IMG/VR virus record: IMGVR_UViG_3300030433_001688
Coordinates: 1-55,166 of that record
Reading direction: 5' to 3' (one strand)
DNA from: a virus
Taxonomy: Duplodnaviria; Caudoviricetes
Length of the DNA: 55,166 nucleotides
In this document: in pieces, positions 1,788 to 38,018 of the stretch
How positions within the stretch are numbered: position 1 is the stretch's first letter
Layout: every line of letters starts with the position of its first letter
The notes under the pieces: model-generated
The model's database searches: none
Told to the model about the DNA's origin: nothing
Seen by the model: only the letters and a program-made list of their open reading frames with translations
Position numbers and translations under genes: made by a program

Positions 1788-1793
1788 TGAAAA

Positions 1794-2485: not shown

Positions 2486-2501
2486 GATTTCCTAGATTCC
2501 C

Positions 2502-2509
2502 TATATTTG
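2502..2509 (+). promoter_or_regulatory. TATATTTG (-7 element, Bacteroidota-type) promoter of the head operon
   Basis: Matches TAnnTTTG; intergenic, about 30 nt before ATG 2539; identical copies precede other + strand operons. Confidence 0.75.
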
Positions 2510-2538
2510 CACTATATAAAAGAAGAAATTAAAATAAG

Positions 2539-2901: not shown

Positions 2902-2914
2902 AAATTAAGAAACT

Positions 2915-21000: not shown

Positions 21001-24000
21001 ACTACAAAACATAAAGAAAGTAATACAAACTGTTGTAGGTCAGGGCGGTCAAGTGTTTATTCATGGCACAGCTAAAGCTTTTGAAAAAGCTACAGGCGAG
21101 GAGGTGTCAAGAGGTATTCATATAAAAGATGGCAATCAAGTGCATCTTTTCTTACCTGCTTTGAAAGCAAACACAGCATACCACGAAGCTTTCCACTCTG
21201 CTGCCATGCAAATCGATGAAAAGCAAGGTAAAGGCGCAGCACTACGCAAGCTTGCACGGCAGTTCGCTATGGCTTTACCTAACGCTAAAAGATATCTGGC
21301 TTTTATTAGTGAGTATCTTACTGAAGAGCAACAAGCTTTAGCAGAGGTAGCTGTGACAGACGAGCTTGCTAGAAAGTTATTATCACAAATTGTAGAACAA
21401 AATGCACAAGCTGCGGAGGAACTTGTTGTAGAAATACTCGCTGACATCACTAACGGTGATTTATCAGCAGAGTATAAGCAAGGACTTATAACGTCACTGA
21501 AAAACTACGTAGGTAAATTGTTTGGGACAGAGTTCAAAGATCCTACATTAAAGAACGTAGCTAACGCTATCAAGTCTGTTACCACCACTATGGAGGCAGG
21601 TTTAGGTGTCGCTGGTATGCAAAGACTAGCTGAAGCTACCGAGGATCTCAAAGATGTACCGACAATAACCACTGATGATGATACAGAAGAAGAGTTAAAA
21701 TCACAAGCTCAAAAAATTAGAAGCGGAGATCGTATATCTGGACCAGTAGAAATTAAGACAAAAGAGTTTGTCCCTGAAGTCAGTCAATATGGTTTTAGGT
21801 TGGGAGGTACAGCATACATCCCTGTATCTGTCATGTTAAATTTCCAAGATCGTGGAACTATAGCAGGTAGAGAAAATTATCAAAATGAAGATAGCAGAAG
21901 AAGGATAGAGGAAATTAAAAAGTCTTTATTAAAAGACGGGTATGATGAATCTATACCAGGTGATGCAGGTATAGTCCTAGATGTAGACTCTCAAGGTTAC
22001 GCAAAAATTATTGAAGGAAATCACAGGCTCATAGCTATGGATGAACTTGGTATGAATGTAGTTCCTACAAGTCTACTTATATTGGCTGCTAGGGATGAGT
22101 TTAGATTTCCTAATGATAACCCCCTTAGTTCAAGATACAATGCTGAGGATATGCCTAGACGTATACAACGAAGGTTGGAGGGTATACCAGAGCAAAAAGC
22201 TGAAGGCATTTTAATGTCTAGTGTTGATGCTGAAGGTAATGAAATAAGTGTGCCTATTAATGAATCTTTTGCCCAACAAGGTGCGAGAAGTGGATTCCAA
22301 ATTATAAGTCCTGAAAAGCTTTCAGGGTTTTACGAAAGTGCTAAAAAAGGTAAATATCACATAGGATATGTAAGTATTTGGGAAACAAATCTTGTTGAAT
22401 CTAGAAAGGATGGAGATGGTTTCTTGACATATGAGGACAATCTTATGACTAAAGAGGTAGGTTCTGTTAATGAAGCTGAATCAAATGACAACACTGCAGA
22501 GGAAGGTAAGAGCGCACAGAAGATTGTAGAAACTGTAGCTGACATGCTTACAGAAAAAGGATTTAACTTGGTTATGGAAGGCAAGGGTAAGGACAAAAAG
22601 CTTGTTCTAAAATCATCTAATCAAATCAACTTGTTTAAGATGAAGAAGGATGAGATTTTACAGATCCTTCAGGATAGCGGTATGAAGAAAGAGCAGGCAG
22701 AAAAGACATACAAAAATGCTGTTCAGTTTGCTAGGGGTAGAAGAGCTGCTAGAAAAGAGGCTGCTAAGATAGCCTCTCAAGCTAGACGTAGAGAGGGTAA
22801 GCTATCTACAGAGGCTAAAAATTTACGTAAGCAACTGCAAGAACTTAAGGACAAGTCTAAGAGTTTGCAAGAGTTCTTTAACAAAGCTAAGGCTCTTATT
22901 AAAGAGCGTATGAAAGATAGGAAGACGTCTGATAAGTTTACTGCTGCACAGCTCAATAGTTTCTTCACTATAGCTGGCCAGATGGCACGAACTTCAGCAA
23001 AGAGGCTGTCGGAAAACGAACTCGATATTATAGACTCATTCCTCGATAAAATAGCTACCATATTCGATAAGCAAGATGCAAAAAAAGCGATGGACGATCA
23101 CCTTGATCTTGTTAAGAGTATGCGTAAGCTGCAGAAAACTTTGGTTAGAAAGTCTAAACAAAAAGACTTTGGAGCATACAGGTCCCTCGCAAGAATCGTG
23201 GCTGGCATAAACCCTTCGCTCATACCTGTTGATCAGATGCAGTCGTTCTCTGACTTTGTTAATGACGTCAACAATAGTATGAAGAGGGCTAGGTTTAGTA
23301 AAGATGAAGAGGGTAATCTAGTTGTAACAGCATCTAACCTCAAAGAGGTAAAATCTCTGATGGCTATAGCTACAAACTTCAAAGCCATAGAAGAAGTAGA
23401 AAGAGATGCAAACTTCAGAGCTAGGGCAACTAAAGCTGTTGAGGCAGCAGAAAAAGCTGGGAAGTCAACAACATTTGAAGAGGAGTACAAAGCTATACTA
23501 GAAAAGTATCAGAGAAGTAGACTAAGCCCTACACGCAAAAAGATAGAGGACACAGCGAAAAAGCTAGGTCTTGATGTAAACAATGTACAGGATTTAGAGA
23601 TTATACTCGATGAGCTAGCTAAGGATAGCGCTGAGTTAGCAGAAAACAAAAAGGATCTTATCTTATCCGACGCTATTATCCCAAGAGTTATGGCTAACCT
23701 TGAGGAGTTACTGCAGGACACATCGTTTAGAACAATACTAGGTTTGTTTAGTATGGATAACGTTTCTGCACCAGAACTTAAGGCTAGACTTATGCAGCTC
23801 GATATGAGACATCTAGCAGCTTTGGAGTACAAGATCAATGACTACTTAGTAAACTCTTCTACTATAGGTCTTGGGTACTTAGCGTCTATAGTAAGGGGTA
23901 AGATATCTTTAGCTAGTGATATCAAAGCTCTTGTAGCAAAAGGTGTTAGATCTAAAGACAGATCTTACGGAAGCTTTGCCGATAACGTCCCTTCATTTAT

Positions 24001-26773
24001 ACGTAACGTATTTAAAGTAGGCAACGTTGACGTAGCTAAGATATTAGTAGCTATAGGCTTCCAAGATGTTATGTCTAGCGTAAACCTACATGAGCAGGCT
24101 CATATGGAGAGAGTCACTGCCCTACAAAATAAGATCGATGAGATAACAGAGAAGGGTGGTGAGATAACATCAGACCTATCCAATGCTATAGCACAGATAT
24201 TTTCTATGGCTAATCAAAAGCCAGAGGCTCTATCTGAAGCAGAGTGGTTTATGAATCTACGTGACGCTATGGACTCTACGATTCAAGAGTACGAAGTAGA
24301 GCAGTCAGACATATACGATCCAGAAACTATACAAGAGTTTAAAGACGCTCGTGAATATTTGTTTGGGCAGACTAATAACTTACAGGAGCTGCTAGATAAA
24401 GTCAGAAGCGAAAGAACAGACATCGTAGAAATTGTAGACTTCTTATCCCAGATGCATGAGTCTATGCGCCCAGATTTTGAAAACTTTACAGAAAGATATC
24501 TAGGTAAAACCTTAGAGGTATTAGAAAACTACACTCCTTTTAAAGTTAGGAAGAAAGGCTTTGATGATCAGTTAGATTCTGTTATGGAGATACGTAGACA
24601 ACTGATAAGTGCTCTAAGTAGTGCAGGTAACAGTAATTACACAAAGACTCCTGGCGCTACATTTGAAAGGGAAGCAAGAGCTGTCGGTGGAGATTCTATT
24701 TTAGGACTAAACTTCTTGAAGATAAACGAGGCAACGCTAAGGCAAAACTCGTTTATTATGATGTCGCTTGAGGATGTTCTCGCTATGAAGTATGCTTTCC
24801 AAACTGAAGCTATGCAAGGCCTTATGCCTAAAAGCATAAAGGCTAAGCTGTCAGAGATGATAGACAACTACCTTGTTGCTGACGCTACAGAAGTTCCGTT
24901 TATATTTCAAAAAAATATAAGGGTAGGAGGAAAGACGATACGTAACCCATTTGAGATGTTTAGGGTTGCTGCTGTAGTAAATGCTTTTGGTGGTGTGTTT
25001 GTACAGTTCTTTAAACAGTCTACTGTTATGCTATCTGCTTTTGCAAACACTAAAACACTACAAGGTAAAGCATACCTTATAAGAACTTTTGGGGAGATGC
25101 TGGCCCTAACTTTTATAGGGAAGGATAAAGATGGAAAACTTAGAGTTCTTAGCGATCCTAAAGTAAAAATTAATGACGGGAGGTATGAGCTACTGCGTCA
25201 CACTACTTTATTCTTAAGAGACTACAAGGCTGGTAACATAGATCCGTTTACAGGTAGGGTAGAATTTGATAAGAGTCGACTTGATAAAACTCGTGACTGG
25301 CTGCAAGACAAGTCTATGTGGACGCTAACAACGACAGACAAGGTAGCTGCTATAAGTTCTTTTTATGCTTTCTATGCAGACTTCTTATTATCTGAGGGTG
25401 TAGTAAATGATATCTCAGAAATCAATTGGGGGCAAGAGGCTGCAAATCCAAACATGGAGGCTATAGCTTATGCAGAAAACATAGTTAGCAAAGACCAAAA
25501 CGTCTCTAGCTCTAGACTTGCAGCAAATGTTTATAAAAATAAAAGTGCGTTTGTAAGATTTTTAGTGCAGACTATGCTCCCATTCCAAAGCTTTGCTATC
25601 AATACAAAGAGATCGATTACTGGTGATATAGGACGTATTATTGATCCTGTTAATCCACAAGCTAGAAAGGATGGATTGAGAGGATTGGCAGGAACAACAG
25701 CTTCTTTATTTGTGTTTGCTTACATTTCAAGAGTTATGACTGCACTAATATCTGAGTTTGTTAAAGGCTTCGGAGATGATGACGATGAATCTAACTTAGA
25801 TGAAATACTTACAGATCCTAAAACAATAAGGGAGTCTGCTGTACAAACAGTATTAGACGCAATTCCACTTCCGTCTACACCTGCTATCGATAACAAAGTA
25901 AAAGACTTTTTCAACTACTACTTCTTCTTTAACGCTTCGGACTATGATGCTCCAGGACTTGAAGATAAAGATGCTTTTGAATTGTTTAAACAATACGGTG
26001 ATGCCGTAACAACTTACGAAACAGGTGTGACAGACAAAAAAGGGCCAGTACAAAACGCTATACTAACAGCGCTTAGTGCGCTTGGACCTGGTGGTAAGTT
26101 TGCAATGGACTTGGAAAAGATGCTTGAGCCTACACTTAACGGTGGCACTTCGTACACCACAGGATCAGGGCGTGAAAGGTTTATTAGACCAGAAGATCAG
26201 GCAGACTTTATGTTGAGTAACACATTAAGAACGCTTTTATCTTTTGCTAACCTAGCAGGTGTAGGTGTTAAGGAACTTGACTATGTAGCAAAAGCATTAG
26301 ATGATATGCCAAAAGACAGGGCGCTTTCTTCAGAAGAACAGCTTGCAGCATTTGAAACCATATTGATTGCGATAGGTAACGATCCTGAAACTCGAGCTAC
26401 TATTGAGGGCATGGAGGGCGCAGGACCAGAAAGATTACTTAGCATACTACAGAAGCAAGCTGAAGAAGATCCAGTGACTTTAGCTAGAGGGTTGAGCCAG
26501 GCTAAATTTAAGTCAGCATTAAAACAAGCTGTGGGAGATAAGGTAACCGAGATGATGTTCCCTCAAGAGTATAAGAAATATTCTGCAGAGGTGCGCAGAA
26601 TATCTAGACGCTCCCCGAAAGAAATAGCCGCTGTTATCAGGGGTAAGGAAGGTGAGATGAATCCTGATGACTTCAAAAGGTATAACAATTTCTTACTATA
26701 TTACATCGCTTTAAACTCTGAAGCAACGTTTAACAACGTGCTGATAGAGTTGGATATAAACACAGTAGAATGA
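18035..26773 (+). CDS. Giant (2912 aa) internal virion polyvalent-type protein with zincin HExxH and ParB/Srx-like domains
   Basis: HEAFH at 21182-21196 with downstream EELVVE; IEEIKKSL...IIEGNHRLIAM at about 21900-22070; long coiled coils; EEGIEE motif; last gene of the virion block. Confidence 0.7.
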   Translation: MNGFTEGQDSIFNIVTRAGYTGTEEQLFEAMKQQEAFDAVYRIVQRAGVTLDERDFIYVAGVAPKKKDSALSAEYSTQLGFGVEGGDLDVPTDTTVPPSQREDDLSRLASRQEALQGDFFESIFGSRTDPIDDSNFTGTGALRPEEKKAFHEKSRNELAEQFSTEGFVATDGDINSVDYENYHLAKDWFTSRGINLGTPVGPGDIASFSNEIYDTLKDNPYVVNTGATADVFETVIKNSGLLMEDANSTLNVEMRKQAIVSNTFDIGTYSSAVVAEVPTIDTEEGASFFYEPHLNQFNTSYIPTSEEELTIAQGMMPEKLSTFEKASEYYSAFGKELTTEEYNKVAGYYTARSEVVQALDNKRKVRNHIEIFVDEFSGATTKAQQDDVLSRERDKEATVISLYNEANEVLGIERRAYDIFDVVMQMSMDEVFMNGDTAINRYRQSAEYFGRKLDDETYFKNLNQTAGMIEFGFIDLANMIGLTNSTSESVLLSERIRTGDLVAEGGFKDIYGREFEPDMFSWNELSAAMSQNKSLREGLTFDEIEKGVFGNYIDGNVSAANTLFLDGVAAAVPQIAGTIVMTMAGAPEVALVGFAGSASGSAYSDIKSNAHLTEGEKILYSSLMGGFEYVSEKIFMKQELISANALRKMFGIGVKDIAQETAKTTARKGVRGAIGTAWKKTTGNRVFKFFEEGIEEGLVSFAGQQLTNYAERTALDREISDLQTRLNTEDIADDVASNLRSQIAGKEIEKTDIKYNYIETLDAFAIGTAAGSLQMGIVRAPSFIASKFNFKDQLALENKYEALQKRLANETNSEKKAQIKQEMLEIQDQMWRVSARDLAFLTGISDEDLTEISGLNTRIRKNRRKAFDTRKNLEEARSQGNQDAVAVFEAELSALQADTKQAFETKFNIEGKYSQNQSFIEQNLEDPETQAVIDEVGRVDPDIIDYGRVGKGNSVELTGENANSVIDRIINTGKIISTKFSSREEIIRGLQNIKKVIQTVVGQGGQVFIHGTAKAFEKATGEEVSRGIHIKDGNQVHLFLPALKANTAYHEAFHSAAMQIDEKQGKGAALRKLARQFAMALPNAKRYLAFISEYLTEEQQALAEVAVTDELARKLLSQIVEQNAQAAEELVVEILADITNGDLSAEYKQGLITSLKNYVGKLFGTEFKDPTLKNVANAIKSVTTTMEAGLGVAGMQRLAEATEDLKDVPTITTDDDTEEELKSQAQKIRSGDRISGPVEIKTKEFVPEVSQYGFRLGGTAYIPVSVMLNFQDRGTIAGRENYQNEDSRRRIEEIKKSLLKDGYDESIPGDAGIVLDVDSQGYAKIIEGNHRLIAMDELGMNVVPTSLLILAARDEFRFPNDNPLSSRYNAEDMPRRIQRRLEGIPEQKAEGILMSSVDAEGNEISVPINESFAQQGARSGFQIISPEKLSGFYESAKKGKYHIGYVSIWETNLVESRKDGDGFLTYEDNLMTKEVGSVNEAESNDNTAEEGKSAQKIVETVADMLTEKGFNLVMEGKGKDKKLVLKSSNQINLFKMKKDEILQILQDSGMKKEQAEKTYKNAVQFARGRRAARKEAAKIASQARRREGKLSTEAKNLRKQLQELKDKSKSLQEFFNKAKALIKERMKDRKTSDKFTAAQLNSFFTIAGQMARTSAKRLSENELDIIDSFLDKIATIFDKQDAKKAMDDHLDLVKSMRKLQKTLVRKSKQKDFGAYRSLARIVAGINPSLIPVDQMQSFSDFVNDVNNSMKRARFSKDEEGNLVVTASNLKEVKSLMAIATNFKAIEEVERDANFRARATKAVEAAEKAGKSTTFEEEYKAILEKYQRSRLSPTRKKIEDTAKKLGLDVNNVQDLEIILDELAKDSAELAENKKDLILSDAIIPRVMANLEELLQDTSFRTILGLFSMDNVSAPELKARLMQLDMRHLAALEYKINDYLVNSSTIGLGYLASIVRGKISLASDIKALVAKGVRSKDRSYGSFADNVPSFIRNVFKVGNVDVAKILVAIGFQDVMSSVNLHEQAHMERVTALQNKIDEITEKGGEITSDLSNAIAQIFSMANQKPEALSEAEWFMNLRDAMDSTIQEYEVEQSDIYDPETIQEFKDAREYLFGQTNNLQELLDKVRSERTDIVEIVDFLSQMHESMRPDFENFTERYLGKTLEVLENYTPFKVRKKGFDDQLDSVMEIRRQLISALSSAGNSNYTKTPGATFEREARAVGGDSILGLNFLKINEATLRQNSFIMMSLEDVLAMKYAFQTEAMQGLMPKSIKAKLSEMIDNYLVADATEVPFIFQKNIRVGGKTIRNPFEMFRVAAVVNAFGGVFVQFFKQSTVMLSAFANTKTLQGKAYLIRTFGEMLALTFIGKDKDGKLRVLSDPKVKINDGRYELLRHTTLFLRDYKAGNIDPFTGRVEFDKSRLDKTRDWLQDKSMWTLTTTDKVAAISSFYAFYADFLLSEGVVNDISEINWGQEAANPNMEAIAYAENIVSKDQNVSSSRLAANVYKNKSAFVRFLVQTMLPFQSFAINTKRSITGDIGRIIDPVNPQARKDGLRGLAGTTASLFVFAYISRVMTALISEFVKGFGDDDDESNLDEILTDPKTIRESAVQTVLDAIPLPSTPAIDNKVKDFFNYYFFFNASDYDAPGLEDKDAFELFKQYGDAVTTYETGVTDKKGPVQNAILTALSALGPGGKFAMDLEKMLEPTLNGGTSYTTGSGRERFIRPEDQADFMLSNTLRTLLSFANLAGVGVKELDYVAKALDDMPKDRALSSEEQLAAFETILIAIGNDPETRATIEGMEGAGPERLLSILQKQAEEDPVTLARGLSQAKFKSALKQAVGDKVTEMMFPQEYKKYSAEVRRISRRSPKEIAAVIRGKEGEMNPDDFKRYNNFLLYYIALNSEATFNNVLIELDINTVE

Positions 26774-30998: not shown

Positions 30999-31750
30999 AT
31001 GTAAGATGTTTCATAATATGTTGTTGCCTTCACTCCACTATCTAAGTGTTCACGTATTCTAGCTACAGCAGTATCAAACTTCTGCTTCCCATATTCTAGT
31101 GTTTGATCAGAAGCGAAGTACAATCCTACTGCATATGGGTATGCCTTTTCTTGTGCTACCCACCTAAAATCTTTTATCCCTAAAACTTCTGTATAGATGT
31201 ATGCCTGTATATCGTAACCGAAGTCTCGCACAGCCCACTTAAACTTATCTAACTTCTGCGTGGTCTTTGAGTCAGCTATGTATTCGTCATTTAAAATATC
31301 TAGGAATCCACGTACAGGGACGTCCCCAATAAAGTCGTTAAACTCATATTGAGCATCGCCCTGTAGTGATATTTCGTGGACTCCAGTCTCTTGTAATCTC
31401 TGTATCATTTCCTCAGCCTTTACCTTGTCTTCAACAGAAACTATTTGTTTCCCTGGCTCGGCTAAAGAATCTTTCCATTCTGAGTAAGCTTTGGTCCTTT
31501 GTGGAGCTTTACCACCTATCTCTAAACAGATAGCTGTATCGTCTGCGACCACGAACTGATCGCTAAACGACTCAGGAGTGAGGAGCAGACAGTCGTATAG
31601 CTTACCAAAAGAAAGGGCTGGGCTTTCTATCTTGAGTTGATCCTTCATCTTCATCTCAAACAACTGCATGTCTTTTAATGCGTATTTTATCGACGAGTAA
31701 GAGAGGTATCCCTTCCCATATTTTTCTGATAATTTAAGGGCCAGATCCAT
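30995..31750 (-). CDS. RecE/exonuclease VIII-like PD-(D/E)xK exonuclease
   Basis: LSYSSIK, ALSFGKLYDCLLL.P, RGFLD, DSKTT and YDIQAYIY motifs; adjacent to ERF. Confidence 0.85.
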   Translation of the reverse strand: MDLALKLSEKYGKGYLSYSSIKYALKDMQLFEMKMKDQLKIESPALSFGKLYDCLLLTPESFSDQFVVADDTAICLEIGGKAPQRTKAYSEWKDSLAEPGKQIVSVEDKVKAEEMIQRLQETGVHEISLQGDAQYEFNDFIGDVPVRGFLDILNDEYIADSKTTQKLDKFKWAVRDFGYDIQAYIYTEVLGIKDFRWVAQEKAYPYAVGLYFASDQTLEYGKQKFDTAVARIREHLDSGVKATTYYETSYI

Positions 31751-32319
31751 TACTTAATTACTTCAGCAAGATTACCTAATACCTTTAACTTTTTAACTTG
31801 ATCTTTTGTAAGCTCAGATTCATACTTACCTAGTATAAGCTTTACTGCAGACGCCTTGTCTTTAGAATTGTTGACGTGAGCTAAGCTCATTTCAAAAATG
31901 CTTTTTTCAGGAGCTTTCTTTTTAGCTGGAGTACCAGCGCCTGTGTTTGTAGCGTCACTGTCTTTTGTATCATCAATACAGAACAGTCCGTTGAGTGCAT
32001 ACTTTCTTGCATAACTAGACGATGCTCCTGTTACCTGGCTACCGTCCATACCTTTTTTGCTTTCCTCCTCCCTAGCGAAAGCTGTGGTTTGTACCTCAGA
32101 CTGACCGTCAGTAATACTAGCTGTAGCCTTGACGTATACCCTGTCACCAAGCATTACCATTTCGTCTGACAATGTTAGAATCAGACCATGTTCTGATAGT
32201 AAAGGTTTTACAGATTCTAAAATGTCCTCAGCAGATCTGTATTTGTATCCACCGAACTTGTTCATTTGCCCCTTCGGAGCTTTGAGGTTGCCTTGAATAA
32301 GACTTAGTTTATCTACCAT
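31750..32319 (-). CDS. erf: ERF-family single-strand annealing protein
   Basis: KAPKGQMNKFGGYKYRSAEDILESVKPLL and QVTGASSSYARKYALNGLFCIDDTKDSD. Confidence 0.93.
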   Translation of the reverse strand: MVDKLSLIQGNLKAPKGQMNKFGGYKYRSAEDILESVKPLLSEHGLILTLSDEMVMLGDRVYVKATASITDGQSEVQTTAFAREEESKKGMDGSQVTGASSSYARKYALNGLFCIDDTKDSDATNTGAGTPAKKKAPEKSIFEMSLAHVNNSKDKASAVKLILGKYESELTKDQVKKLKVLGNLAEVIK

Positions 32320-32346: not shown

Positions 32347-32421
32347 ACTCCTGCGTAGGATTCGAACCTACACTCTCGGAAAACCAATTAAACACGAGCC
32401 CATCCCAGTGGGTAGCAGGAG
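32347..32421 (-). ncRNA. tRNA-like RNA with a non-canonical 16-nt loop in place of the anticodon loop
   Basis: Minus strand: CTCCTGC TA CCCA-CTGGGA-TGGG CTCG-TGTTTAATTGGTTTTC-CGAG AGT GTAGG-TTCGAAT-CCTAC GCAGGAG T. Perfect 7-bp acceptor stem, U8, D arm with GG, perfect T arm; no encoded CCA. Confidence 0.85.
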
Positions 32422-32445
32422 GTGTGCGGCACAAGGCCGCATAAA

Positions 32446-32739
32446 TTAGAACGGTAAGTCAGCAGTTTCTGTTTCTGTTTCTACCTCTTCTTGCTTTTCA
32501 GCAGTAGTGATGGTTCCGTCAGTCCAGATAACTTTTGCATTACCTACATAATTTTTAGGTGTCTTTGCTTCACGCTCTTCTTTTGTTTGTGAGCAGAAGA
32601 TGCTGCAGTTGTCACCGAATTGTCCCGTCTCATCGTTCACTGAAATAGTGAAGTCATAGTACGTTCCGTTTTTGCCTTTGATAAGTTTTTCTTTTGGCAG
32701 TTTGTTCAAATTAATTGAACCTTTGATTAATGATCCCAT
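32446..32739 (-). CDS. Putative single-stranded DNA-binding protein
   Basis: Short OB-like beta protein with acidic tail ending ADLPF; upstream of ERF. Confidence 0.7.
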   Translation of the reverse strand: MGSLIKGSINLNKLPKEKLIKGKNGTYYDFTISVNDETGQFGDNCSIFCSQTKEEREAKTPKNYVGNAKVIWTDGTITTAEKQEEVETETETADLPF

Positions 32740-32749
32740 AGTTTTAAAT

Positions 32750-32977
32750 TTAAAGGGTTTGAATTAATAGTTGATATTGTTTTCTAAATGCTGGTCTGTG
32801 ATCCATAGCTCTATCTGTCATTATCCAATGCAGAAACAAAGGATCTCTATGTACTTCAATAGCTTTAGATACATCAATAAAGCTCATGTCCTTGTGCTTA
32901 GCTAAGTATGCTATAGCCAAGCGCAATGCTTCGTCACCAGTAGCACCAGTGATTCTTGTTACTTCCTCTACTATCAT
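32750..32977 (-). CDS. Hypothetical protein
   Basis: 75 aa; ATGA-coupled in the - strand operon. Confidence 0.7.
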   Translation of the reverse strand: MIVEEVTRITGATGDEALRLAIAYLAKHKDMSFIDVSKAIEVHRDPLFLHWIMTDRAMDHRPAFRKQYQLLIQTL

Positions 32978-33120
32978 GACATTTTATTTATAGTGTTTTT
33001 AAATTCTTTCATAGCTTTTTTCTGTAGATACTTTCTGTATTGGTAGTCATCGTCAATGTGATCACGATGCTCCCCAAAATCTTCAATATCCTTGATAAAT
33101 ACCTCTTTTATTTTTCCCAT
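32974..33120 (-). CDS. Hypothetical protein
   Basis: Likely start MGKIKEVF at 33120; IDDDYQY motif. Confidence 0.6.
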   Translation of the reverse strand: MGKIKEVFIKDIEDFGEHRDHIDDDYQYRKYLQKKAMKEFKNTINKMS

Positions 33121-33165
33121 AGCGTTGACAAATATATGTGTTACAAACTTTAATTGCAACCATTG

Positions 33166-33378
33166 TTAATAATTTTCAAAGTCATCTTCGGCTAGCTCCT
33201 GCATATAACTGCGGAAGTTATTATCATCTAGCAGAAATGACATTGAGTGTTTTTCTTTACCGCTTCTGTAGTACAGCCAATCAAGATCAACACTACGACC
33301 TTCAGGGTAATCGACTACATAGTAAACCAGTGTGGCTTCTACACCACAACCTAGTTCAAAATCAACTTCTCGTTTCAT
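33166..33378 (-). CDS. Hypothetical protein
   Basis: 70 aa, acidic; A-rich leader. Confidence 0.7.
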   Translation of the reverse strand: MKREVDFELGCGVEATLVYYVVDYPEGRSVDLDWLYYRSGKEKHSMSFLLDDNNFRSYMQELAEDDFENY

Positions 33379-33413
33379 ATTTATTTTATTTTTTTATATT
33401 ATGCAATCTTTTA

Positions 33414-33857
33414 TTAGAAAACGTTATACTCTCCAGCAACTGGACAGGTACGCTTGCCGTCTGAATCTATATCCATCAACATCTCTCTTATGTCAGCACG
33501 ATCGTTTGCAGTTAAAGTTCTGTTTCTGTCGCAAACCTTTCTCATTAGTTTAATCATATTTGGAACTTGTGATATAATATAAGATAGCTTTCCAGCTCTT
33601 TTCCTATCACCATAAACTTCGCATATATTTCTGTTTAATTCTTTATTAAAAATATAATGCTTTCTATGACCACGAGTGGACTTAGGCAATCTTGAACCAC
33701 CACCTAAACTTCTCCCCCCCTCTCTATATGTTATAGTCCAAGTTTGTTGTTCTATGTTTTCGTCTTTAAGTTGTTGCATGTGTGCTTTAAGTTCATTTAC
33801 TTTTTGTTGAGCTTCTCTTAAAGCTATCTCTACTTGTCTGTAATTATTGTTTTTCAT
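33414..33857 (-). CDS. Hypothetical protein
   Basis: 147 aa with N-terminal coiled coil. Confidence 0.7.
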   Translation of the reverse strand: MKNNNYRQVEIALREAQQKVNELKAHMQQLKDENIEQQTWTITYREGGRSLGGGSRLPKSTRGHRKHYIFNKELNRNICEVYGDRKRAGKLSYIISQVPNMIKLMRKVCDRNRTLTANDRADIREMLMDIDSDGKRTCPVAGEYNVF

Positions 33858-34116
33858 CGTTACATCCTTTAATAAATTCTACTACTTCATTGTAAACGCT
33901 ATCCATGTAGGGTAGACTCCAAATGATTACGGAGAAGTCATCTTCATGCTTAGCAACTTCGAAACACTTCTGTACTACTGGCATTAACCAATCCCATGAT
34001 GTGTGGTATTGTAGGTTCTGAACTATCTCATTTGAAGGTAGTTCGTACTCACTATACCCATCGTGCATTATCTCATGCACCCCCATAAATTCTGCTATTA
34101 ATTTATTGTCTTTCAT
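33844..34116 (-). CDS. Conserved Bacteroidota phage hypothetical protein
   Basis: NKLIAEFMG...YHTSWDWLMPVV motif; start at 34116 preferred, with 34164 as an alternative that has its own AAACCAA leader. Confidence 0.75.
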   Translation of the reverse strand: MKDNKLIAEFMGVHEIMHDGYSEYELPSNEIVQNLQYHTSWDWLMPVVQKCFEVAKHEDDFSVIIWSLPYMDSVYNEVVEFIKGCNDEKQ

Positions 34117-34261
34117 TTTGTTTTGGTTTAATTGGTTCATCCAAATCCATTCTTTTTTTATCATCTTGTTTTGGTTTAAACACTACTGTTGGTAGTGGCA
34201 TTGCAATTAATCCAGCTAATTCGTCCATGCTGAATCCTGATTGTGTTTTTCGTTTACTCAT
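34103..34261 (-). CDS. 52-aa hypothetical protein (not in ORF track)
   Basis: MSKRKTQSGFSMDELAGLIAMPLPTVVFKPKQDDKKRMDLDEPIKPKQNERQ*; AAACCAATAAA leader. Confidence 0.55.
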   Translation of the reverse strand: MSKRKTQSGFSMDELAGLIAMPLPTVVFKPKQDDKKRMDLDEPIKPKQNERQ

Positions 34262-34262
34262 T

Positions 34263-34595
34263 TTATTGGTTTATTATAAGTTCTTCTATAAATATTTTTA
34301 CACAGCTTTCATCGCCTTGATAGTATAATGCATCATCTACTTCTGTGAAGATTTCTTTAATCCTATCGTCACCTTTTGCTTCATTGACAGCACGTTGATA
34401 CTCTTGCAAAGCGTTTGCATATTCTGTAAATAGTTTTTGTTCTGAATAGTCTAATAGTGAGTCCATTACGTGGACGGCATACACCTTTCTACACTCTTGT
34501 TTGGCACGTAGTTCTGTTATCAGTTTGCCTTGTGCTTCGATTGTTTTAAATAGTTCGTTGTTTGACATTTCGTTATATCTTTTTAGTAAATTCAT
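34263..34595 (-). CDS. Hypothetical early protein
   Basis: 110 aa in a tightly packed - strand array. Confidence 0.7.
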   Translation of the reverse strand: MNLLKRYNEMSNNELFKTIEAQGKLITELRAKQECRKVYAVHVMDSLLDYSEQKLFTEYANALQEYQRAVNEAKGDDRIKEIFTEVDDALYYQGDESCVKIFIEELIINQ

Positions 34596-34600
34596 CGTGT

Positions 34601-34798
34601 TTATATTAATAATAAGTCATCAACATAGTCGGGTTCTAATCCGAATTCGCTTAACAAGTAATCTTCTATATCCCATAGCGTCAGGTCTCCCGATGTCAAA
34701 CCTTGCGTTACAAAGTCTCTTGCTTCAGATACCATATGTTCTGCTGTTTCAGGTGATATGCAATCACGTTGAATTAGTACGTCTTTAATTCTTCTCAT
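34601..34798 (-). CDS. Conserved phage hypothetical protein
   Basis: IKDVLIQRD..S...A and EFGLEPDY motifs. Confidence 0.75.
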   Translation of the reverse strand: MRRIKDVLIQRDCISPETAEHMVSEARDFVTQGLTSGDLTLWDIEDYLLSEFGLEPDYVDDLLLI

Positions 34799-34803
34799 CG
34801 TAT

Positions 34804-35070
34804 TTAGTATTCTAGTTCAATTAATTTCCCATCTACCTCTTCGTATCTTAGGTCTGTAGGGCATTCCCATTGCGTCCAATAGTATTCATCTTGTTGGTAG
34901 CTTTCAGCTAAGATGTACTCGTCAGATAGTTCGTTATCAACATCAACATTCCAAGAACGTATCAGTGCTATTAAGTCTTTCTCGTACTTAATGTGCATAA
35001 ATCCATCGCCTACTACATAGCCATCATTCATGCCTTCGCCAGTTATATCACATCGTCTTGCGTATTTCAT
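34804..35070 (-). CDS. Conserved phage hypothetical protein
   Basis: ARRCDITGEGMNDGY...YYWTQWE motif. Confidence 0.75.
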   Translation of the reverse strand: MKYARRCDITGEGMNDGYVVGDGFMHIKYEKDLIALIRSWNVDVDNELSDEYILAESYQQDEYYWTQWECPTDLRYEEVDGKLIELEY

Positions 35071-35097
35071 GTTTATTGGTTTTATATTTTCTAATAG

Positions 35098-35214
35098 TTT
35101 AGTGCATTACTAGTTAATAATGTTGAGGGTAGATAACACGCCATATAGCTATCTATTACTCGATTGGTTTCGCCTAATCAAAACCCTCAAACATTTATTT
35201 AGTGCATTACTAGT
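35098..35214. repeat. 17-bp direct repeat flanking an 83-bp structured element
   Basis: TTTAGTGCATTACTAGT at 35098-35114 and 35198-35214, exactly 100 bp apart. Confidence 0.9.
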
Positions 35215-35807
35215 CCTACTTTATTTGTTGGATTATACCACTTTGTGGCGTTAAGGTCGCTTTCCATGGCGTTTACATACCCAGCATTTTCTAAATCCTC
35301 ATAGCTGTCGAAGATTCGTGCATGACGATCTGTTGCGTAGTCTATCATGTCATCTCGTGTGCCGCCTTCGCTGAATATGATATCGTAGTTGTCAGGAATA
35401 TCAACACCAATAAATAGAGGGATAGACTTCGTATAAGAGTAGAACTTTACACCTGGCAACCTTTTGGCTATTTCTATCCACTTAGCTAAGTATTCTTTCG
35501 AATAGTAATCGCCTGAATCATGAACCCTGAGTATATCTACTTTCTTTTTCTTTATTTCTGCAATCATATCATCTATGAAGTTGTTTGACTTAGTAGCTAG
35601 ATATCTAAACTGGAAAGCTGGTTTGACATTGCTCCAAGAGTATGCACCTTTCTGAGCATAGCAAAACTTTGCACAGCTCCCTGCAAATGGACAGGTGCGC
35701 TTACCGTTCTCATCTTCAAAGGCAGGTATCCCGAAGTTGAATACTCGCAGTCCGATTAACTTGCTAGTCTTTTTTAGTTTACTGTTTTGTGTTATTAAAT
35801 GCGGCAT
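35199..35807 (-). CDS. GP88-like (radical-SAM-related, Cys-cluster) phage protein
   Basis: NSKLKKT, FGIPA, TCPFAGSCAKFCYA.KG, RVHDSGDYYS and FYSYTK motifs. Confidence 0.8.
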   Translation of the reverse strand: MPHLITQNSKLKKTSKLIGLRVFNFGIPAFEDENGKRTCPFAGSCAKFCYAQKGAYSWSNVKPAFQFRYLATKSNNFIDDMIAEIKKKKVDILRVHDSGDYYSKEYLAKWIEIAKRLPGVKFYSYTKSIPLFIGVDIPDNYDIIFSEGGTRDDMIDYATDRHARIFDSYEDLENAGYVNAMESDLNATKWYNPTNKVGLVMH

Positions 35808-35991
35808 CTTTCAATTGGTTTATTATCGGTTCATTTTTATATCCGTATGCAGATATCTCTCCTTTATTAAATTTTCTTACAAGCTGTTTATACACTTTAG
35901 TTCTAGTTGGAGATTTACAATCCTTAATTGCGTGTATATATTCTATTGAATACTTATCGTTTAGTTTGTAATAAAAAGTAGTTCTAAACAT
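35779..35991 (-). CDS. Hypothetical early protein
   Basis: 70 aa; fills the gap in the array. Confidence 0.6.
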   Translation of the reverse strand: MFRTTFYYKLNDKYSIEYIHAIKDCKSPTRTKVYKQLVRKFNKGEISAYGYKNEPIINQLKDAAFNNTKQ

Positions 35992-36139
35992 TTGATTTAT
36001 ATTTTACTGGTTGAATTACTACGTCATCGTAACCTTTTTCTTGCCATTCGAATTGTTCTATAATCGCATCGTGAAAGCAATCAAATTCGTTACATACTCC
36101 TCCTATCCACACTAAGTATTTTATTCCTTGTGATTTCAT
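35984..36139 (-). CDS. 51-aa hypothetical protein (not in ORF track)
   Basis: MKSQGIKYLVWIGGVCNEF...EWQEKGYDDVVIQPVKYKSNV*. Confidence 0.7.
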   Translation of the reverse strand: MKSQGIKYLVWIGGVCNEFDCFHDAIIEQFEWQEKGYDDVVIQPVKYKSNV

Positions 36140-36150
36140 GTTAGTATGCT

Positions 36151-36324
36151 TTATTGATTGTTTTCTAAATTGTCATACTGTTTAGCTAGGTATTCGATTT
36201 CTTCAGCGTGTATGGCTACACTTAGGTACTCCGATACGTCAATGTAAAGTTTGCCGTCTAGCTCTTCACTAGGCGTTTCGTGGTGTACTTCAAGTACGAA
36301 TGAGGCTTTTTCTAATTGTGTCAT
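36151..36324 (-). CDS. Hypothetical early protein
   Basis: Start MTQLEKAS at 36324 with AAAACCAAT leader. Confidence 0.65.
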   Translation of the reverse strand: MTQLEKASFVLEVHHETPSEELDGKLYIDVSEYLSVAIHAEEIEYLAKQYDNLENNQ

Positions 36325-36504
36325 GGGGAATATTGGTTTTATTAAAAATAGCAAGACTTAGCACAGTATCGTGTACTCCTTGCACTCTGCTCCAAGTTTC
36401 CGTCCGCTTGTGCGTTCGCCTTGCTATTTCGTTACCATACGCAAGAGCATAGTAAGATAATTATAACTAAAAGTGTCATTTCTACAACGCTTGGTTTGTT
36501 GACA

Positions 36505-36609
36505 TTATTGTACATCATCAAAATTGATTAGGTCGAACTCTACTCCCATATCTAAGAGCGCCTGTTGCAGTGCTAAATCTTGCACGTTTGGTAATTGGTT
36601 TTTACTCAT
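36505..36609 (-). CDS. 34-aa acidic peptide downstream of the hammerhead
   Basis: MSKNQLPNVQDLALQQALLDMGVEFDLINFDDVQ*; A-rich leader. Confidence 0.55.
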   Translation of the reverse strand: MSKNQLPNVQDLALQQALLDMGVEFDLINFDDVQ

Positions 36610-36631
36610 AATTGAAAAGGTTTTATTTATT

Positions 36632-36762
36632 AACATAGACTACCCTAGGCGAATACGTTCAGATTTTTTTTACACGTTGGGCAAACAGGGATACAAGTGA
36701 TATGTTTGCTTGTGCTTACTCGCTTCGGGTAGTTTCGACTAATCAAGTCTCGTCAGTATGCT
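36632..36762 (-). ncRNA. Hammerhead ribozyme (type I topology, large insert in stem III)
   Basis: Minus strand: AGCATA-CTGACGA-GACT(TGATT)AGTC-GAAA-CTACCC...GGGTAG-TC^TATGTT. All core nucleotides are present; predicted GUC cleavage between 36638 and 36637. Confidence 0.9.
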
Positions 36763-36867
36763 TATTTGTTTATACTCAAGTACCATTGTAACAACGGTAG
36801 TTTCTGCTGAAGTAGTATATTCCAGACAATTTGCGGAGTTTGCTTAAGGATATCATGAAAAAGGGTT

Positions 36868-36978
36868 TTTATTTATTTATTAAAATAGTTGTTTTATTAG
36901 ACGTACTTTTTCTGCGTCTGTTAATTCATCGCTATCTAGTATGTTGATTAGGTAGCATTCAAATTCTTCTGAATTCAT
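36868..36978 (-). CDS. 36-aa hypothetical peptide
   Basis: MNSEEFECYLINILDSDELTDAEKVRLIKTTILINK*. Confidence 0.5.
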
Positions 36979-37080
36979 AATCTTTATAAAAATTTATGGC
37001 ACGGCTTTGCACCGTGTCCGTTGTTATCGTGTGGTCTCCACTAGCCAATGTATTTAAATTGGCTCGTATGTTGTCGGCGC

Positions 37081-37272
37081 TTACGCTCTCGCTCTGCGTC
37101 TGTTGTTGCGTTGTTCATCTGCTCGCTCGATGCGGTCAGATATCGCTTCAACTTTGCGGTTGGTTGATGCCGTTGCCCTGTTAGACTTTTGCCCCTTGGT
37201 ACTGCCGTAAGTCTTGTTTGAGTACTCACGCCTGTAACGTTTGTCGTGTAGTATAGTATCTAAAACTCTCAT
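37081..37272 (-). CDS. Small Arg-rich early protein
   Basis: Start MRVLDTIL at 37272 overlaps the upstream stop (ATGA). Confidence 0.6.
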   Translation of the reverse strand: MRVLDTILHDKRYRREYSNKTYGSTKGQKSNRATASTNRKVEAISDRIERADEQRNNRRRARA

Positions 37273-37484
37273 TTCTTTGATTTTATTGTTGGCTTGAAAC
37301 GATTCCAATTCCACTCCTCAAGTAGGTTTTCAGCTGATTGTAACGCCAGAGAGTAATCTGCACAAGGCTCGGGCAACTCTAAAATCACTTTACCTAATGT
37401 AGTAGATATTCCGTAAAACTTACTACCGCTTTGGATTGCATCAGCTATTTGACGTACATAGTGCGCTTGTTGAATTGTATTCAT
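37269..37484 (-). CDS. First gene of the leftward early transcript, hypothetical
   Basis: Start MNTIQQAH at 37484, downstream of the promoter at 37516-37547. Confidence 0.65.
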   Translation of the reverse strand: MNTIQQAHYVRQIADAIQSGSKFYGISTTLGKVILELPEPCADYSLALQSAENLLEEWNWNRFKPTIKSKK

Positions 37485-37515
37485 AATTGAAATTGTTTTG
37501 GTTTGAATTCTGGTA

Positions 37516-37557
37516 CTAATATACACTAGTCACTTCGATAAATGCAAGTTTTATCGA
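37516..37557 (-). promoter_or_regulatory. Early leftward promoter with overlapping inverted repeat
   Basis: TTG-N21-TATATTAG on the minus strand; TCGATAAA-N7-TTTATCGA (37535-37557) straddles the -33 element. Confidence 0.6.
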
Positions 37558-38018
37558 CACTTTAACAGTATTTTAACATTTAAGGCGATATATAGACAAT
37601 TGACGTTAATAGATGTTAATGCCCTTGCATATGTCAAAAAAAAATTGTATAAGTTGGCAAATGCAAAGAGTTGTTAAATAGTTGCAGAAGTCGTAAATGT
37701 TTTGTATAGCGTACCCCGTCGGGGGTTCCTTGGTACGTTGCCTGTGTTCGGAGTGGGGATTGTCACAAACTTTTTTGCGTTTGCGTTTGTTAACAGAATA
37801 AACTTGCATAAGTTGCTGTAAAATTGTATAGGCAAAAAGCTGAAATTTTTTGCAGGTTGTCAGCAATGTAAAAGGCGGTGGGGTTGCAGATGCGTTTGGG
37901 TTTGCGTGCGTCAACGGCTGTATGTATGTATAATCCCCAGGATCTGTATAGCTCAGATTTTTTTTAACACTTAGGAGGCGGTGTTTTCACTAAATTTGCA
38001 TATACTAATTCAATAGAT

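What the first reader, a model, noticed from the sequence alone, without database searches (positions are those of the whole stretch)
32347..32421. tRNA-scaffolded antisense RNA: expanded anticodon loop complementary to early-gene translation starts
Seen: an intact tRNA body (7-bp acceptor stem, D arm, perfect GTAGG-TTCGAAT-CCTAC T arm) whose anticodon arm is a 4-bp stem with an unpairable 16-nt loop, 5'-UGUUUAAUUGGUUUUC-3'. Its reverse complement (GAAAACCAAUUAAACA) recurs at initiation regions of same-strand early genes. Matches: 12 nt at 34126-34137 (9 nt before ATG 34116); 9 nt plus AAACA across a 1-nt bulge, reaching the AUG, at 35070-35083; 9 nt at 35813-35821; 9 nt at 36332-36340; 8 nt at 34265-34272; 7 nt at 34171-34177 and 37498-37504; 11 nt just inside the ORF at 36592-36602. 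Inference: the tRNA fold provides RNase P/Z processing and stability while the loop acts as a guide that pairs with a shared leader motif. It could switch off (or recruit ribosomes to) early mRNAs, and perhaps host mRNAs with AACCAA leaders. I know of no described system of this kind.
Basis: partly seen in the sequence, partly recalled or inferred. Interest (0 to 1): 0.92.

Follow-up and report, generated by a model that had tools for sequence, protein, structure and literature searches.

The report
tRNA-shaped phage RNA matching early-gene leaders
A marine phage carries a conserved tRNA-shaped RNA gene whose oversized "anticodon" loop is complementary to a short signal placed just before the start codons of many of its early genes, which suggests an undescribed way of switching those genes.

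Summary
On the minus strand at 32421-32347 lies a 75-nt cloverleaf: a 7-bp acceptor stem, a short D-like hairpin, a canonical T arm and a 4-bp stem closing a 16-nt loop. ARAGORN and Rfam do not call it a tRNA.

It is under selection. Only 5 of 75 columns vary among 14 relatives, all five keep pairing, and the flanking genes vary in 229 of 945 columns.

The loop complement (AAAACCAAU...) is a start-associated motif. It is ten times denser on the sense strand of the 5.2 kb of early genes upstream than anywhere else in the genome. Its AACCAA core usually ends 6 nt before the ATG. Matches of 9 nt or more number 6, against 0.9 for shuffled loops (p about 0.002).

I found diverged relatives with different stems and an extra hairpin that keep the loop core AUU(U)GGUU. 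In one (G019) loop and leader motif changed together (GAUUUGG with AACCAAAUC).

Against this, two lineages (G006, the G003 type) keep the RNA but show no enrichment of the complement. Energy-based tests are weaker, and no RNA data exist.

Best reading (about 0.45): a tRNA-scaffolded antisense RNA that pairs with early translation start regions, probably to shut them off. No Rfam family or paper I searched describes this.

The parts
32347..32421 (-). tRNA-like RNA gene (type 1 of the family), 75 nt. The parts in window coordinates are: acceptor 5' strand 32421-32415; D-like hairpin 32412-32399; loop-closing stem 32398-32395 with 32378-32375; T arm 32371-32355; acceptor 3' strand 32354-32348; discriminator U 32347.
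   Evidence: Sequence. Cloverleaf energy. Covariance model R1 scores 109.7 bits. 5 of 75 columns vary, all keeping pairs, including a compensatory G-C to A-U change in the T stem. Not called by ARAGORN or Rfam.
32379..32394 (-). Expanded 16-nt 'anticodon' loop, 5'-UGUUUAAUUGGUUUUC-3'. The central 12 nt are invariant, and positions 2 and 15 probably pair. The core AUUGGUU is shared with the diverged family members.
32426..32440 (-). G+C-rich hairpin GCGGCC-UUG-UGCCGC with no U run, 4 nt upstream of the tRNA-like 5' end and just after the stop codon of the upstream gene. A hairpin also sits at this place in type 2a relatives (GGTATGT..ACATACC).
   Evidence: The role as protector of the upstream mRNA's 3' end after RNase P cleavage is inference.
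32446..32739 (-). Upstream gene of 97 aa, with an acidic C-terminal tail ending DLPF like single-strand-binding proteins. It matches phrog_24909 (function unknown).
   Evidence: The SSB-like reading rests on the tail only (inference).
31750..32319 (-). Downstream gene: Erf-family single-strand annealing protein, the first gene of the recombination/replication module.
   Evidence: PF04404 at 9e-42 and phrog_155.
34126..34137 (-). Start-associated motif copy AACCAATTAAAC (12 nt complementary to the loop), followed by a second AAACCAAAACAAA and the ATG at 34116.
35070..35083 (-). Motif copy AAAACCAATAAAC, immediately before the ATG of the 88-aa gene. Predicted duplex -11.9 kcal/mol.
35813..35821 (-). 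Motif copy AAACCAATT, 5 nt before the ATG of the GP88-family gene (202 aa). Predicted duplex -11.7 kcal/mol.
36332..36340 (-). Motif copy AAAACCAAT, 7 nt before the ATG at 36324 (57 aa).
34265..34272 (-). Motif copy AAACCAAT, 3 nt before the ATG at 34261 (52 aa).
34171..34177 (-). Motif copy AAACCAA, 6 nt before the ATG at 34164 (106 aa).
37498..37504 (-). Motif copy AAACCAA, 13 nt before the ATG at 37484 (71 aa).
36592..36602 (-). AAAACCAATTA (11 nt), just inside a small ORF (ATGAGTAAAAACCAATTA). It is conserved in relatives L041 and L037.

Best explanation
The element is a phage-encoded, tRNA-shaped small RNA and not a decoding tRNA. The acceptor stem and T arm form a tRNA minihelix. By inference this lets host tRNA-processing enzymes cut the RNA out of the early polycistronic transcript and makes it stable. 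The enlarged loop (core AUUGGUU flanked by U runs) is the working part. It base-pairs with a start-associated motif, AAAACCAAU(A/U)AA, that sits at about -15 to -4 of many small early genes. Because the RNA gene lies at the downstream end of the motif-bearing early genes, at the border with the recombination/replication genes, I think the RNA accumulates after them. It would then occlude their translation start regions as a delayed shut-off of early proteins, an RNA counterpart of T4 RegA/RegB. Shown here: the fold and its conservation, the motif and its fixed spacing, the complementarity and its specificity to the early region, and one case of co-change of loop and motif. Inferred: transcription, processing, pairing in vivo, and the sign of the effect.
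For: (1) Selection on the fold. 5 of 75 columns vary, against 229 of 945 in the flanking genes (binomial P=6.7e-5). All changes keep pairs.
(2) A wider family. 13 related loci were found with a pattern that leaves the loop free (2 of the 15 hits were chance), and 5 more were found via model R2 and a longer-gap pattern. In the 11-sequence alignment, 6 of 15 RNAalifold pairs show compensatory changes. The stems differ completely from type 1, yet the loop keeps AUU(U)GGUU or AUAUGGUU.
(3) The motif. AACCAA occurs at 2.31 per kb on the sense strand of 32450-37650, against 0.0-0.29 per kb elsewhere on either strand. Of 45 distinct copies in the clade, 34 precede an ATG opening 30 or more codons. 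The spacing is 6 nt in 18, 5 nt in 4 and 7 nt in 2. The motif stands before different genes in different relatives.
(4) Complementarity beyond chance. It repeats in G013 (5 sites against 1.03, p=0.01) and L277 (3 against 0.38, p=0.018).
(5) Co-change in G019. Its own loop gives 7 sites of 9 nt or more, including 14 and 13 nt (p=0.003), while the type 2 loop gives 0 and the type 1 loop gives 3 (p=0.085). There are none in 8.5 kb downstream. The 11-mer AACCAAATCAA occurs only 3 times in the 63-kb genome: the loop itself and two leaders.
(6) No complementarity to the 6 downstream or 40 opposite-strand gene starts.
Against: G006 keeps the RNA (loop GUUUUUUUUUCAUUGGUUCU), but its early leaders are of another kind (..ACACAATG). 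There are 0 sites of 9 nt or more, against 1.4 expected. The G003 type (G003, L375, L373) shows 1 site, p about 0.3-0.5. G008 (p=0.056) and L374 (p=0.10) are marginal. The energy test weakens to p=0.06 with wider windows and automatic gene calls. Enrichment in relatives is not independent evidence against coincidence, because loop and motif are inherited together. Only G019 gives a co-change, and G019 also has AACCAATT-type leaders that fit its loop less well. The duplexes are short and A-U rich (-7 to -12 kcal/mol). Homology of type 1 with the other types is not shown by the models: R1 misses type 2 and R2 misses type 1. There is no evidence that the RNA is made or processed. The fixed 6-nt spacing of the motif is more than a simple blocker needs.
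Confidence: 0.45

Rival explanations
1. Ribosome-bound adaptor (activator). The tRNA-shaped RNA docks on the host ribosome like a tRNA. Its large loop then pairs with the leader motif upstream of the start codon. It would act as a Shine-Dalgarno/anti-Shine-Dalgarno pair supplied in trans, on Bacteroidia ribosomes whose own anti-SD is hidden.
For: The motif has a fixed spacing from the ATG (a peak at 6 nt for 18 of 34 copies), as expected for a signal read in a fixed ribosomal geometry. All named hosts of the nearest isolates are Flavobacteriia or other Bacteroidota. Bacteroidia ribosomes are reported as blind to SD sequences (abstracts of PMC6847099, PMC7797042 and PMC13000453, seen in the listing). 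The tRNA shape is conserved although no decoding is possible.
Against: The RNA gene lies downstream of the genes it would have to activate. Nothing tested here shows ribosome binding. G006 and the G003 type lack the motif. The D-arm region is replaced by a long hairpin in most family members, so a standard tRNA L-shape is doubtful.
Confidence: 0.12
2. The conserved loop serves another partner: a host RNA containing AACCAAU, or a protein or polymerase for which the loop is a decoy (6S-RNA-like, or an rRNA or promoter mimic). The phage leader motif then either uses the same partner independently or merely coexists with the loop.
For: The loop core is kept in G006 and the G003 type, where the phage's own leaders lack the complement. 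What is invariant across the family is short: UGGUU(U) in the loop and AAAACCA in the leaders.
Against: The host is unknown, so no target could be sought. The co-change of loop and leaders in G019 is not expected if they do not interact. The motif's strand bias (12 to 1) and its ATG spacing point to an RNA-level role in translation.
Confidence: 0.2
3. A tRNA-like processing or punctuation signal only. The fold directs RNase P/Z cleavage that separates early mRNA from recombination-gene mRNA, and the hairpin upstream protects the new 3' end. On this view the loop-leader complementarity is a coincidence, or a relic of recombination at the repeated motif.
For: The element always sits at the border between the small early genes and the replication/recombination module, on the same strand. 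An upstream hairpin is present in types 1 and 2a. Only 1 of the 15 upstream flanks printed shows a Bacteroidetes-type promoter box near the element (L304).
Against: A pure processing signal does not need an invariant loop sequence. The loop core is the best-kept part across a family whose stems have all changed. The chance of the complementarity is about 1e-3.
Confidence: 0.15
4. A decaying tRNA gene (pseudogene), or an unusual decoding or suppressor tRNA.
For: Related phages carry ordinary tRNA-Arg(UCU), with or without tRNA-Met. In G007 this gene lies right after an SSB-like gene of the same module. Complete relatives have either ordinary tRNAs (G002, G004, G005, G007) or the tRNA-like RNA (G003, G006, G008, G013, the window), never both.
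Against: There is purifying selection with compensatory changes. Loops of 13-19 nt cannot decode. The genome is 89% coding under table 11, so no recoding calls for a suppressor. There is no sequence similarity to those tRNA-Arg genes beyond generic tRNA features (17-22 bits).
Confidence: 0.03

Closest known systems
Start-associated sequences (SAS) of Cluster K mycobacteriophages (PMC3203893; passages read)
   Same: An asymmetric repeated motif, nearly always in one orientation and immediately upstream of many start codons. It often overlaps the stop codon of the gene before. It is specific to one phage group, lies mostly in non-structural genes, and has no established function.
   Different: The mycobacteriophage SAS (GGGATAGGAGCCC) contains an SD core and partly pairs with 16S rRNA. 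The motif here (AAAACCAAU) has no SD, in phages of SD-blind hosts. Here a phage-encoded RNA carries the complement; none is reported for Cluster K in the passages I read.
T4 RegB endoribonuclease and RegA translational repressor (PMC3014915; passages read)
   Same: These are phage factors that switch off many early mRNAs by acting on a shared short sequence in their translation start regions. regA lies in the replication gene cluster, as the RNA gene does here.
   Different: RegA and RegB are proteins. Here the candidate effector is an RNA, and its effect is untested.
Trans-acting base-pairing small RNAs of bacteria and prophages that occlude ribosome binding sites (general knowledge; listing)
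   Same: A short seed in a single-stranded loop pairs with the translation start regions of several mRNAs.
   Different: No known example uses a tRNA cloverleaf as its body with the seed in an enlarged anticodon loop. Bacteroidota also lack Hfq (recalled, not checked here).
tRNA-like scaffolds: engineered tRNA scaffolds for RNA expression in E. coli (PMC3753655, listing only); tRNA-linked microRNA precursors of murine gammaherpesvirus 68 and mascRNA (both recalled, not checked)
   Same: A tRNA fold is used for processing and stability of a non-decoding RNA payload.
   Different: Those are man-made or eukaryotic. A natural bacterial-virus case with the payload in the anticodon loop was not found in my searches.
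T-box leaders (recalled)
   Same: Gene control through pairing between a tRNA anticodon loop and an mRNA leader.
   Different: In T-boxes a normal cellular tRNA is sensed by a structured leader through 3-4 nt. Here a dedicated tRNA-like RNA has 9-14 nt of complementarity to unstructured start regions.

Membership tests
Transfer RNA (Rfam RF00005 / ARAGORN definition) | Recognised by tRNA gene finders and covariance models | tested here: not met
   ARAGORN finds 0 genes in the window and in 28 related loci. Rfam gathering search gives 0 hits. The best permissive hit is tRNA-Sec at 14.8 bits against a threshold of 47.
Transfer RNA | 7-nt anticodon loop on a 5-bp stem | tested here: not met
   Type 1 has a 16-nt loop (12 nt if G2:U15 pairs) on a 4-bp stem. 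Relatives have loops of 13-19 nt.
Transfer RNA | 7-bp acceptor stem stacked on a 5-bp T stem with a TTCGAAT-type T loop | tested here: met
   CTCCTGC/GCAGGAG and GTAGG-TTCGAAT-CCTAC. A compensatory change is seen in the T stem.
Transfer RNA | Standard D arm and positions 26 and 44-48 | tested here: inconclusive
   Type 1 has a compact 4-bp/6-nt hairpin carrying GG, no position 26 and a 3-nt variable region. The other types have a long two-part hairpin instead.
Transfer RNA | Aminoacylation, CCA end, RNase P/Z processing | not testable with these tools
   No CCA is encoded (the 3' trailer is CUAAUU...). No RNA data are available.
Any Rfam 15 RNA family | Score at or above the family threshold | tested here: not met
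   0 hits for the window. 0 hits at E<=1 for four loci holding type 2 elements.
Trans-acting antisense small RNA | Complementarity to target start regions beyond chance | tested here: met
   It is not met in G006 or the G003 type.
Trans-acting antisense small RNA | Co-variation of seed and targets between relatives | tested here: inconclusive
   One clear case (G019). Types 1 and 2 are not discriminated from each other. L374 is heterogeneous.
Trans-acting antisense small RNA | A discrete transcript and an effect on target expression | not testable with these tools
   No RNA run holds the sequence. No cultured phage carries the element: blastn against 50,697 phage records found nothing, and the covariance models run on 5 isolate records gave only weak hits.
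Start-associated sequences (as defined for Cluster K phages) | Asymmetric repeat in one orientation, immediately upstream of start codons, specific to the phage group | tested here: met
   Strand bias of 12 to 1 in the early region. 34 of 45 copies precede an ORF start, with a spacing peak at 6 nt. Membership is by analogy of definition, not by sequence similarity.

The most novel reading that the evidence does not exclude
A family of marine Flavobacteriia-type phages encodes a tRNA-shaped RNA that sits on the ribosome like a tRNA. Its enlarged anticodon loop would act as a portable anti-Shine-Dalgarno sequence: it pairs with AAAACCAAU placed 6 nt upstream of the start codon. Phage early mRNAs would thereby gain a private initiation signal on host ribosomes that are otherwise blind to SD pairing. 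Later the same pairing would silence them.
Probability: 0.1. Interest if true: 0.97.

Novelty: new variant of a known kind. Interest (0 to 1): 0.8.

Why it matters
If the pairing is real, this would be the first natural bacterial-virus case of a tRNA fold reused as the body of a guide RNA. It would also give a function to start-associated sequences, whose role has been open since they were described in mycobacteriophages. It bears on how translation starts are chosen in Bacteroidota, which do not use Shine-Dalgarno pairing. It offers a compact, programmable RNA part (tRNA body plus exchangeable loop) for gene control in these bacteria. Even on the most cautious reading, it is a new conserved structured RNA family, absent from Rfam. 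It is present in phages found in marine metagenomes of at least 9 studies (2 of the 20 holder rows may be the source sample).

Tried and rejected
Decayed tRNA: rejected, because of the conservation and compensatory changes.

Suppressor or recoding tRNA: rejected. Coding density is 89% under table 11.

attP or tRNA-fragment relic: not pursued. The full cloverleaf lies inside an operon, and none of the 22 proteins I scanned matched an integrase. Not all ORFs were scanned.

Derivation from the tRNA-Arg(UCU) of relatives: no similarity beyond generic features.

Own promoter: a Bacteroidetes -7 box (TAnnTTTG) lies near the element only in L304, 1 of the 15 upstream flanks printed.

Distant relatives of the upstream 97-aa protein (41-58% identity): the 21 IMG/VR loci (L016-L036) and 35 metagenome loci (L050-L084) gave no hit with model R1, except in L016, which belongs to the type 1 clade.

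Genome-contig scan: 24 hits, none in Bacteroidota. In the 5 I checked I found only ordinary tRNAs or none, so I read them as chance matches. The other 19 were not checked.

L038 is a tmRNA of an unrelated large phage.

RNA evidence: no RNA holder listed. Read laying was not used, because contigs cannot show RNA ends.

16S rRNA complementarity of the motif: could not be tested.

Supplementary files of papers were not opened; figures S3 and S4 of PMC3203893 may hold more SAS detail.

The weak G015 hit (18.1 bits) was not examined.

The protein tools (homology, structure, complex) were not used, because the finding is an RNA.
Full report
WHAT IS THERE. The window is a complete 55,166-bp virus record. 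It has a late or structural block on the plus strand: terminase, portal, tail fibre and virion proteins. Two very large ORFs (1,742 and 2,912 aa) also lie there; the 2,912-aa one has no PHROG match. A leftward block at about 27.7-37.6 kb holds some 16 small genes of unknown function. These are followed by a 97-aa protein with an SSB-like DLPF tail, Erf, a PD-(D/E)XK exonuclease and a primase-helicase with a BT4734-like N domain. Coding density under table 11 is 89%. The nearest cultured phages all infect Bacteroidota: Flavobacterium Elemovirus at 40.6% terminase identity, then Cellulophaga, Maribacter and Tenacibaculum. A Flavobacteriia host is therefore likely but not shown.

THE ELEMENT. It has a 7-bp acceptor stem, UA, a 4-bp hairpin with a 6-nt loop containing GG, a 4-bp stem closing a 16-nt loop, 3 nt, a canonical T arm and a discriminator U. 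No CCA is encoded. ARAGORN and Rfam do not accept it as a tRNA. The cloverleaf is within 0.4 kcal/mol of the MFE. The MFE itself is not unusual (z=-1.35). A G+C-rich hairpin without a U run lies 4 nt upstream.

IT IS SELECTED. Exact-pattern and protein-anchored searches found the element in 19 further loci from IMG/VR and metagenomes; some are the same contig filed twice. They give 5 distinct sequences. Among 14 distinct 1.1-kb haplotypes, 5 of 75 element columns vary. The comparison is 68 of 375 columns in the upstream gene, 161 of 570 in erf, and 5 of 25 and 8 of 27 in the spacers (binomial P=6.7e-5). All five changes keep pairing. They are C7 to U (G.U); G29 to A or U42 to C, which points to a pair inside the 'loop'; and G50 to A together with C66 to U in the T stem. 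The central 12 nt of the loop never vary.

THE LEADER MOTIF. The complement of the loop is GAAAACCAAUUAAACA. The core AACCAA occurs 12 times on the sense strand of 32450-37650 (2.31 per kb), against 0.0-0.29 per kb in every other region and strand. In close relatives, which carry partly different early genes, the motif reads AAAACCAAT(A/T)A(A/G)A(A/G)ATG. Of 45 distinct copies, 34 precede an ATG opening 30 or more codons. The spacing is 6 nt in 18, 5 nt in 4, 7 nt in 2, and 13 or 15 nt in 8. This fits the definition of the start-associated sequences of Cluster K mycobacteriophages, whose function is unknown (PMC3203893, passages). It contains no SD core. Bacteroidia ribosomes are reported not to use SD pairing (abstracts in the listing).

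IS THE COMPLEMENTARITY MORE THAN CHANCE? Yes for the window; the counts against shuffled and natural 16-mers and the duplex energies are those given in the observation check. A less favourable repeat with -25..+12 windows and automatic calls gave p=0.06.

A WIDER FAMILY. Relatives by terminase (72-80% identity) were fetched as whole records. G008 has the motif and a diverged tRNA-like element that model R1 had missed. A pattern that leaves the loop free (GTGAGYGTCTGG..GGTTCGAWYCC) then found 13 related loci; 2 of the 15 hits were chance. Model R2 and a longer-gap pattern added G003, L373, L374 and L375. These RNAs are 94-116 nt long. Each has a 7-bp acceptor stem (GTGAGYG), UCUGG, a long two-part hairpin with apical GUGAUG, a 3-5-bp stem closing a 13-19-nt loop, a T arm and a discriminator.

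RNAalifold on 11 of these sequences gives 15 pairs, 6 of them with compensatory changes. By eye, the loop-closing stem also covaries: G-C to A-U in G008 and L240, and U-A to C-G in L318. The loops are:
- UUUUAUUGGUUAU (type 2)
- UUUUAAUUGGUUAU (L240)
- UUUUGAUUUGGUUUA (L317 = G019)
- UUUUGAUUUGGUUAU (L318)
- UUUUAUUUGGUUUA (L374)
- UUUUAUAUGGUUUAG (G003 type)
- GUUUUUUUUUCAUUGGUUCU (G006)

Type 1 shares four things with these: the position at the early/replication border, the T loop, the loop core and the 3' trailer CUAAUUUAAUUAA. The two covariance models do not cross-detect, so common descent of type 1 and the rest is likely but not proven. Rfam has no match. No cultured phage has the element, and neither does any species-representative bacterial genome by that pattern. 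Among complete relatives, the RNA is present in G003, G006, G008, G013 and the window. It is absent from G002, G004, G005 and G007, which instead carry ordinary tRNA-Arg(UCU), with or without tRNA-Met.

DOES THE LOOP TRACK THE LEADERS? Matches of 9 nt or more to each genome's own loop, in up to 6 kb upstream, against shuffles:

| Genome | Sites observed | Shuffle mean | p |
|---|---|---|---|
| G000 (window) | 6 | 1.05 | 0.001 |
| G013 | 5 | 1.03 | 0.01 |
| L277 | 3 | 0.38 | 0.018 |
| G008 | 3 | 0.71 | 0.056 |
| G019 | 7 | 1.07 | 0.003 |
| L374 | 3 | 1.12 | 0.10 |
| G003 | 1 | 0.71 | 0.5 |
| L375 | 1 | 0.63 | 0.47 |
| L373 | 1 | 0.47 | 0.32 |
| G006 | 0 | 1.40 | 1.0 |

G019 is the informative case. 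Its loop has GAUUUGG where type 2 has AUUGG. Its two best leaders read AACCAAAUCAA(A/G), giving matches of 14 and 13 nt. The type 2 loop finds nothing there, and G019's loop finds at most 10 nt in type 1 and type 2 genomes. That 11-mer occurs nowhere else in the 63-kb genome. However, G019 also has AACCAAUU-type leaders. L374's leaders are mixed. G006 and the G003 type use other leader endings (..ACACAAUG..ACAUCAUG). What is constant everywhere is UGGUU(U) in the loop and, where the motif exists, AAAACCA in the leader.

HOW IT MOST LIKELY WORKS. Shown: a selected tRNA-like fold; a conserved loop; a translation-linked leader motif; complementarity specific to the early genes upstream; and one co-change of loop and leader.

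Inferred: the RNA is co-transcribed with the early genes. A promoter box lies nearby only in L304. The RNA would be released by tRNA-processing enzymes that recognise the acceptor/T-arm minihelix (established knowledge of RNase P and RNase Z substrates; not tested here). The upstream hairpin would guard the new mRNA end. The loop would then pair with positions -15 to -4 of early mRNAs.

The gene lies after its putative targets, at the border with the replication genes. This is much as regA lies in T4's replication cluster (PMC3014915, passages). I therefore favour delayed repression of early translation (confidence 0.45 for the antisense-regulator reading as a whole).

The precise spacing of the motif keeps open the bolder reading that the RNA works on the ribosome as a trans-acting anti-SD (0.10-0.12). 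The two lineages without the motif keep open a host or protein partner (0.20). A pure processing signal (0.15) and a dying tRNA (0.03) fit the loop conservation poorly.

NOVELTY. Full-text searches for tRNA-like, phage, anticodon loop and antisense (11 papers listed, none describing such an RNA by title or abstract) turned up no such system. Nor did a search for bacteriophage, tRNA-like, small RNA and translation initiation region (92 papers held at least 4 of the 5 terms, 15 listed). Rfam 15 has no family for it. The nearest known things are listed under Closest known systems. I rate it a new variant of a known kind (a base-pairing regulatory RNA), with a small chance of being categorically new. 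It remains a computational inference.

Noticed in passing
L207, L209, L212, L229, L232, L248, L258, L263, L298, L302, L313 (hits; sequences): A recurrent tRNA-like element of about 80 nt in large phage contigs (up to 372 kb) that ARAGORN does not call. It has a 7-bp acceptor stem, no D arm, an anticodon arm with a CUGAUAC loop (anticodon GAU) and a long variable region, GGTTAATTGGTTAC, before the T arm.
   Followed up: no
L297, L246, L238, L282: Minimal 'minihelix' forms: an acceptor-like stem and a T arm with only a single-stranded AAUUGGUUUU-type stretch between them (L238 also has a hairpin). L282 lies directly after a gene ending ..DDGLPF, as in the window. All were found with a pattern that requires ATTGGTT, so that word is present by construction.
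   Followed up: partly
L322 (G008), L240, L318, L324: the 80 nt after the tRNA-like element: A conserved second structure, CTTGATAAGNGAGGGGGCAAACTT....GTCCTCCTTTCTTRTC, forms a long hairpin (about -28 kcal/mol in G008) just downstream of the element in some family members. It is absent from the window.
   Followed up: no
G002, G004, G005, G007, G014 versus the window, G003, G006, G008, G013: Related phages carry either ordinary tRNA-Arg(UCU), with or without tRNA-Met, or the tRNA-like RNA, never both. In G007 the tRNA-Arg lies right after an SSB-like gene (tail ..NDVPF) in the same module.
   Followed up: partly
G006 positions 1657-3154 and 7451; G003 and G019 early regions: Other start-associated endings recur in relatives..(A/T)ACACA-ATG in G006 and ..ACATC-ATG in G003, G019, G008 and L277. 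Several leader 'dialects' may therefore coexist in this phage family.
   Followed up: no
window 18035-26773 (+) and 9391-14619 (+): Two very large ORFs (2,912 and 1,742 aa) lie in the late block. The larger has no PHROG match at 1e-5. The smaller matches a virion structural protein family.
   Followed up: no
window 32452-32500 (-): The 3' end of the SSB-like gene is a GAAACA-type tandem repeat that encodes the acidic ETETETA tail. It is one of the most self-repeated 16-mers of the early region.
   Followed up: no
L021, L022, L024, L025 (about 130 nt after the SSB-like gene): Distant relatives without the tRNA-like RNA have at the same place an intergenic stretch with a Bacteroidetes-type -7 box (TATATTTG) and a possible 24-codon ORF (MKKLTINPQFETPVVGLSSWGFLI) before erf.
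   Followed up: no
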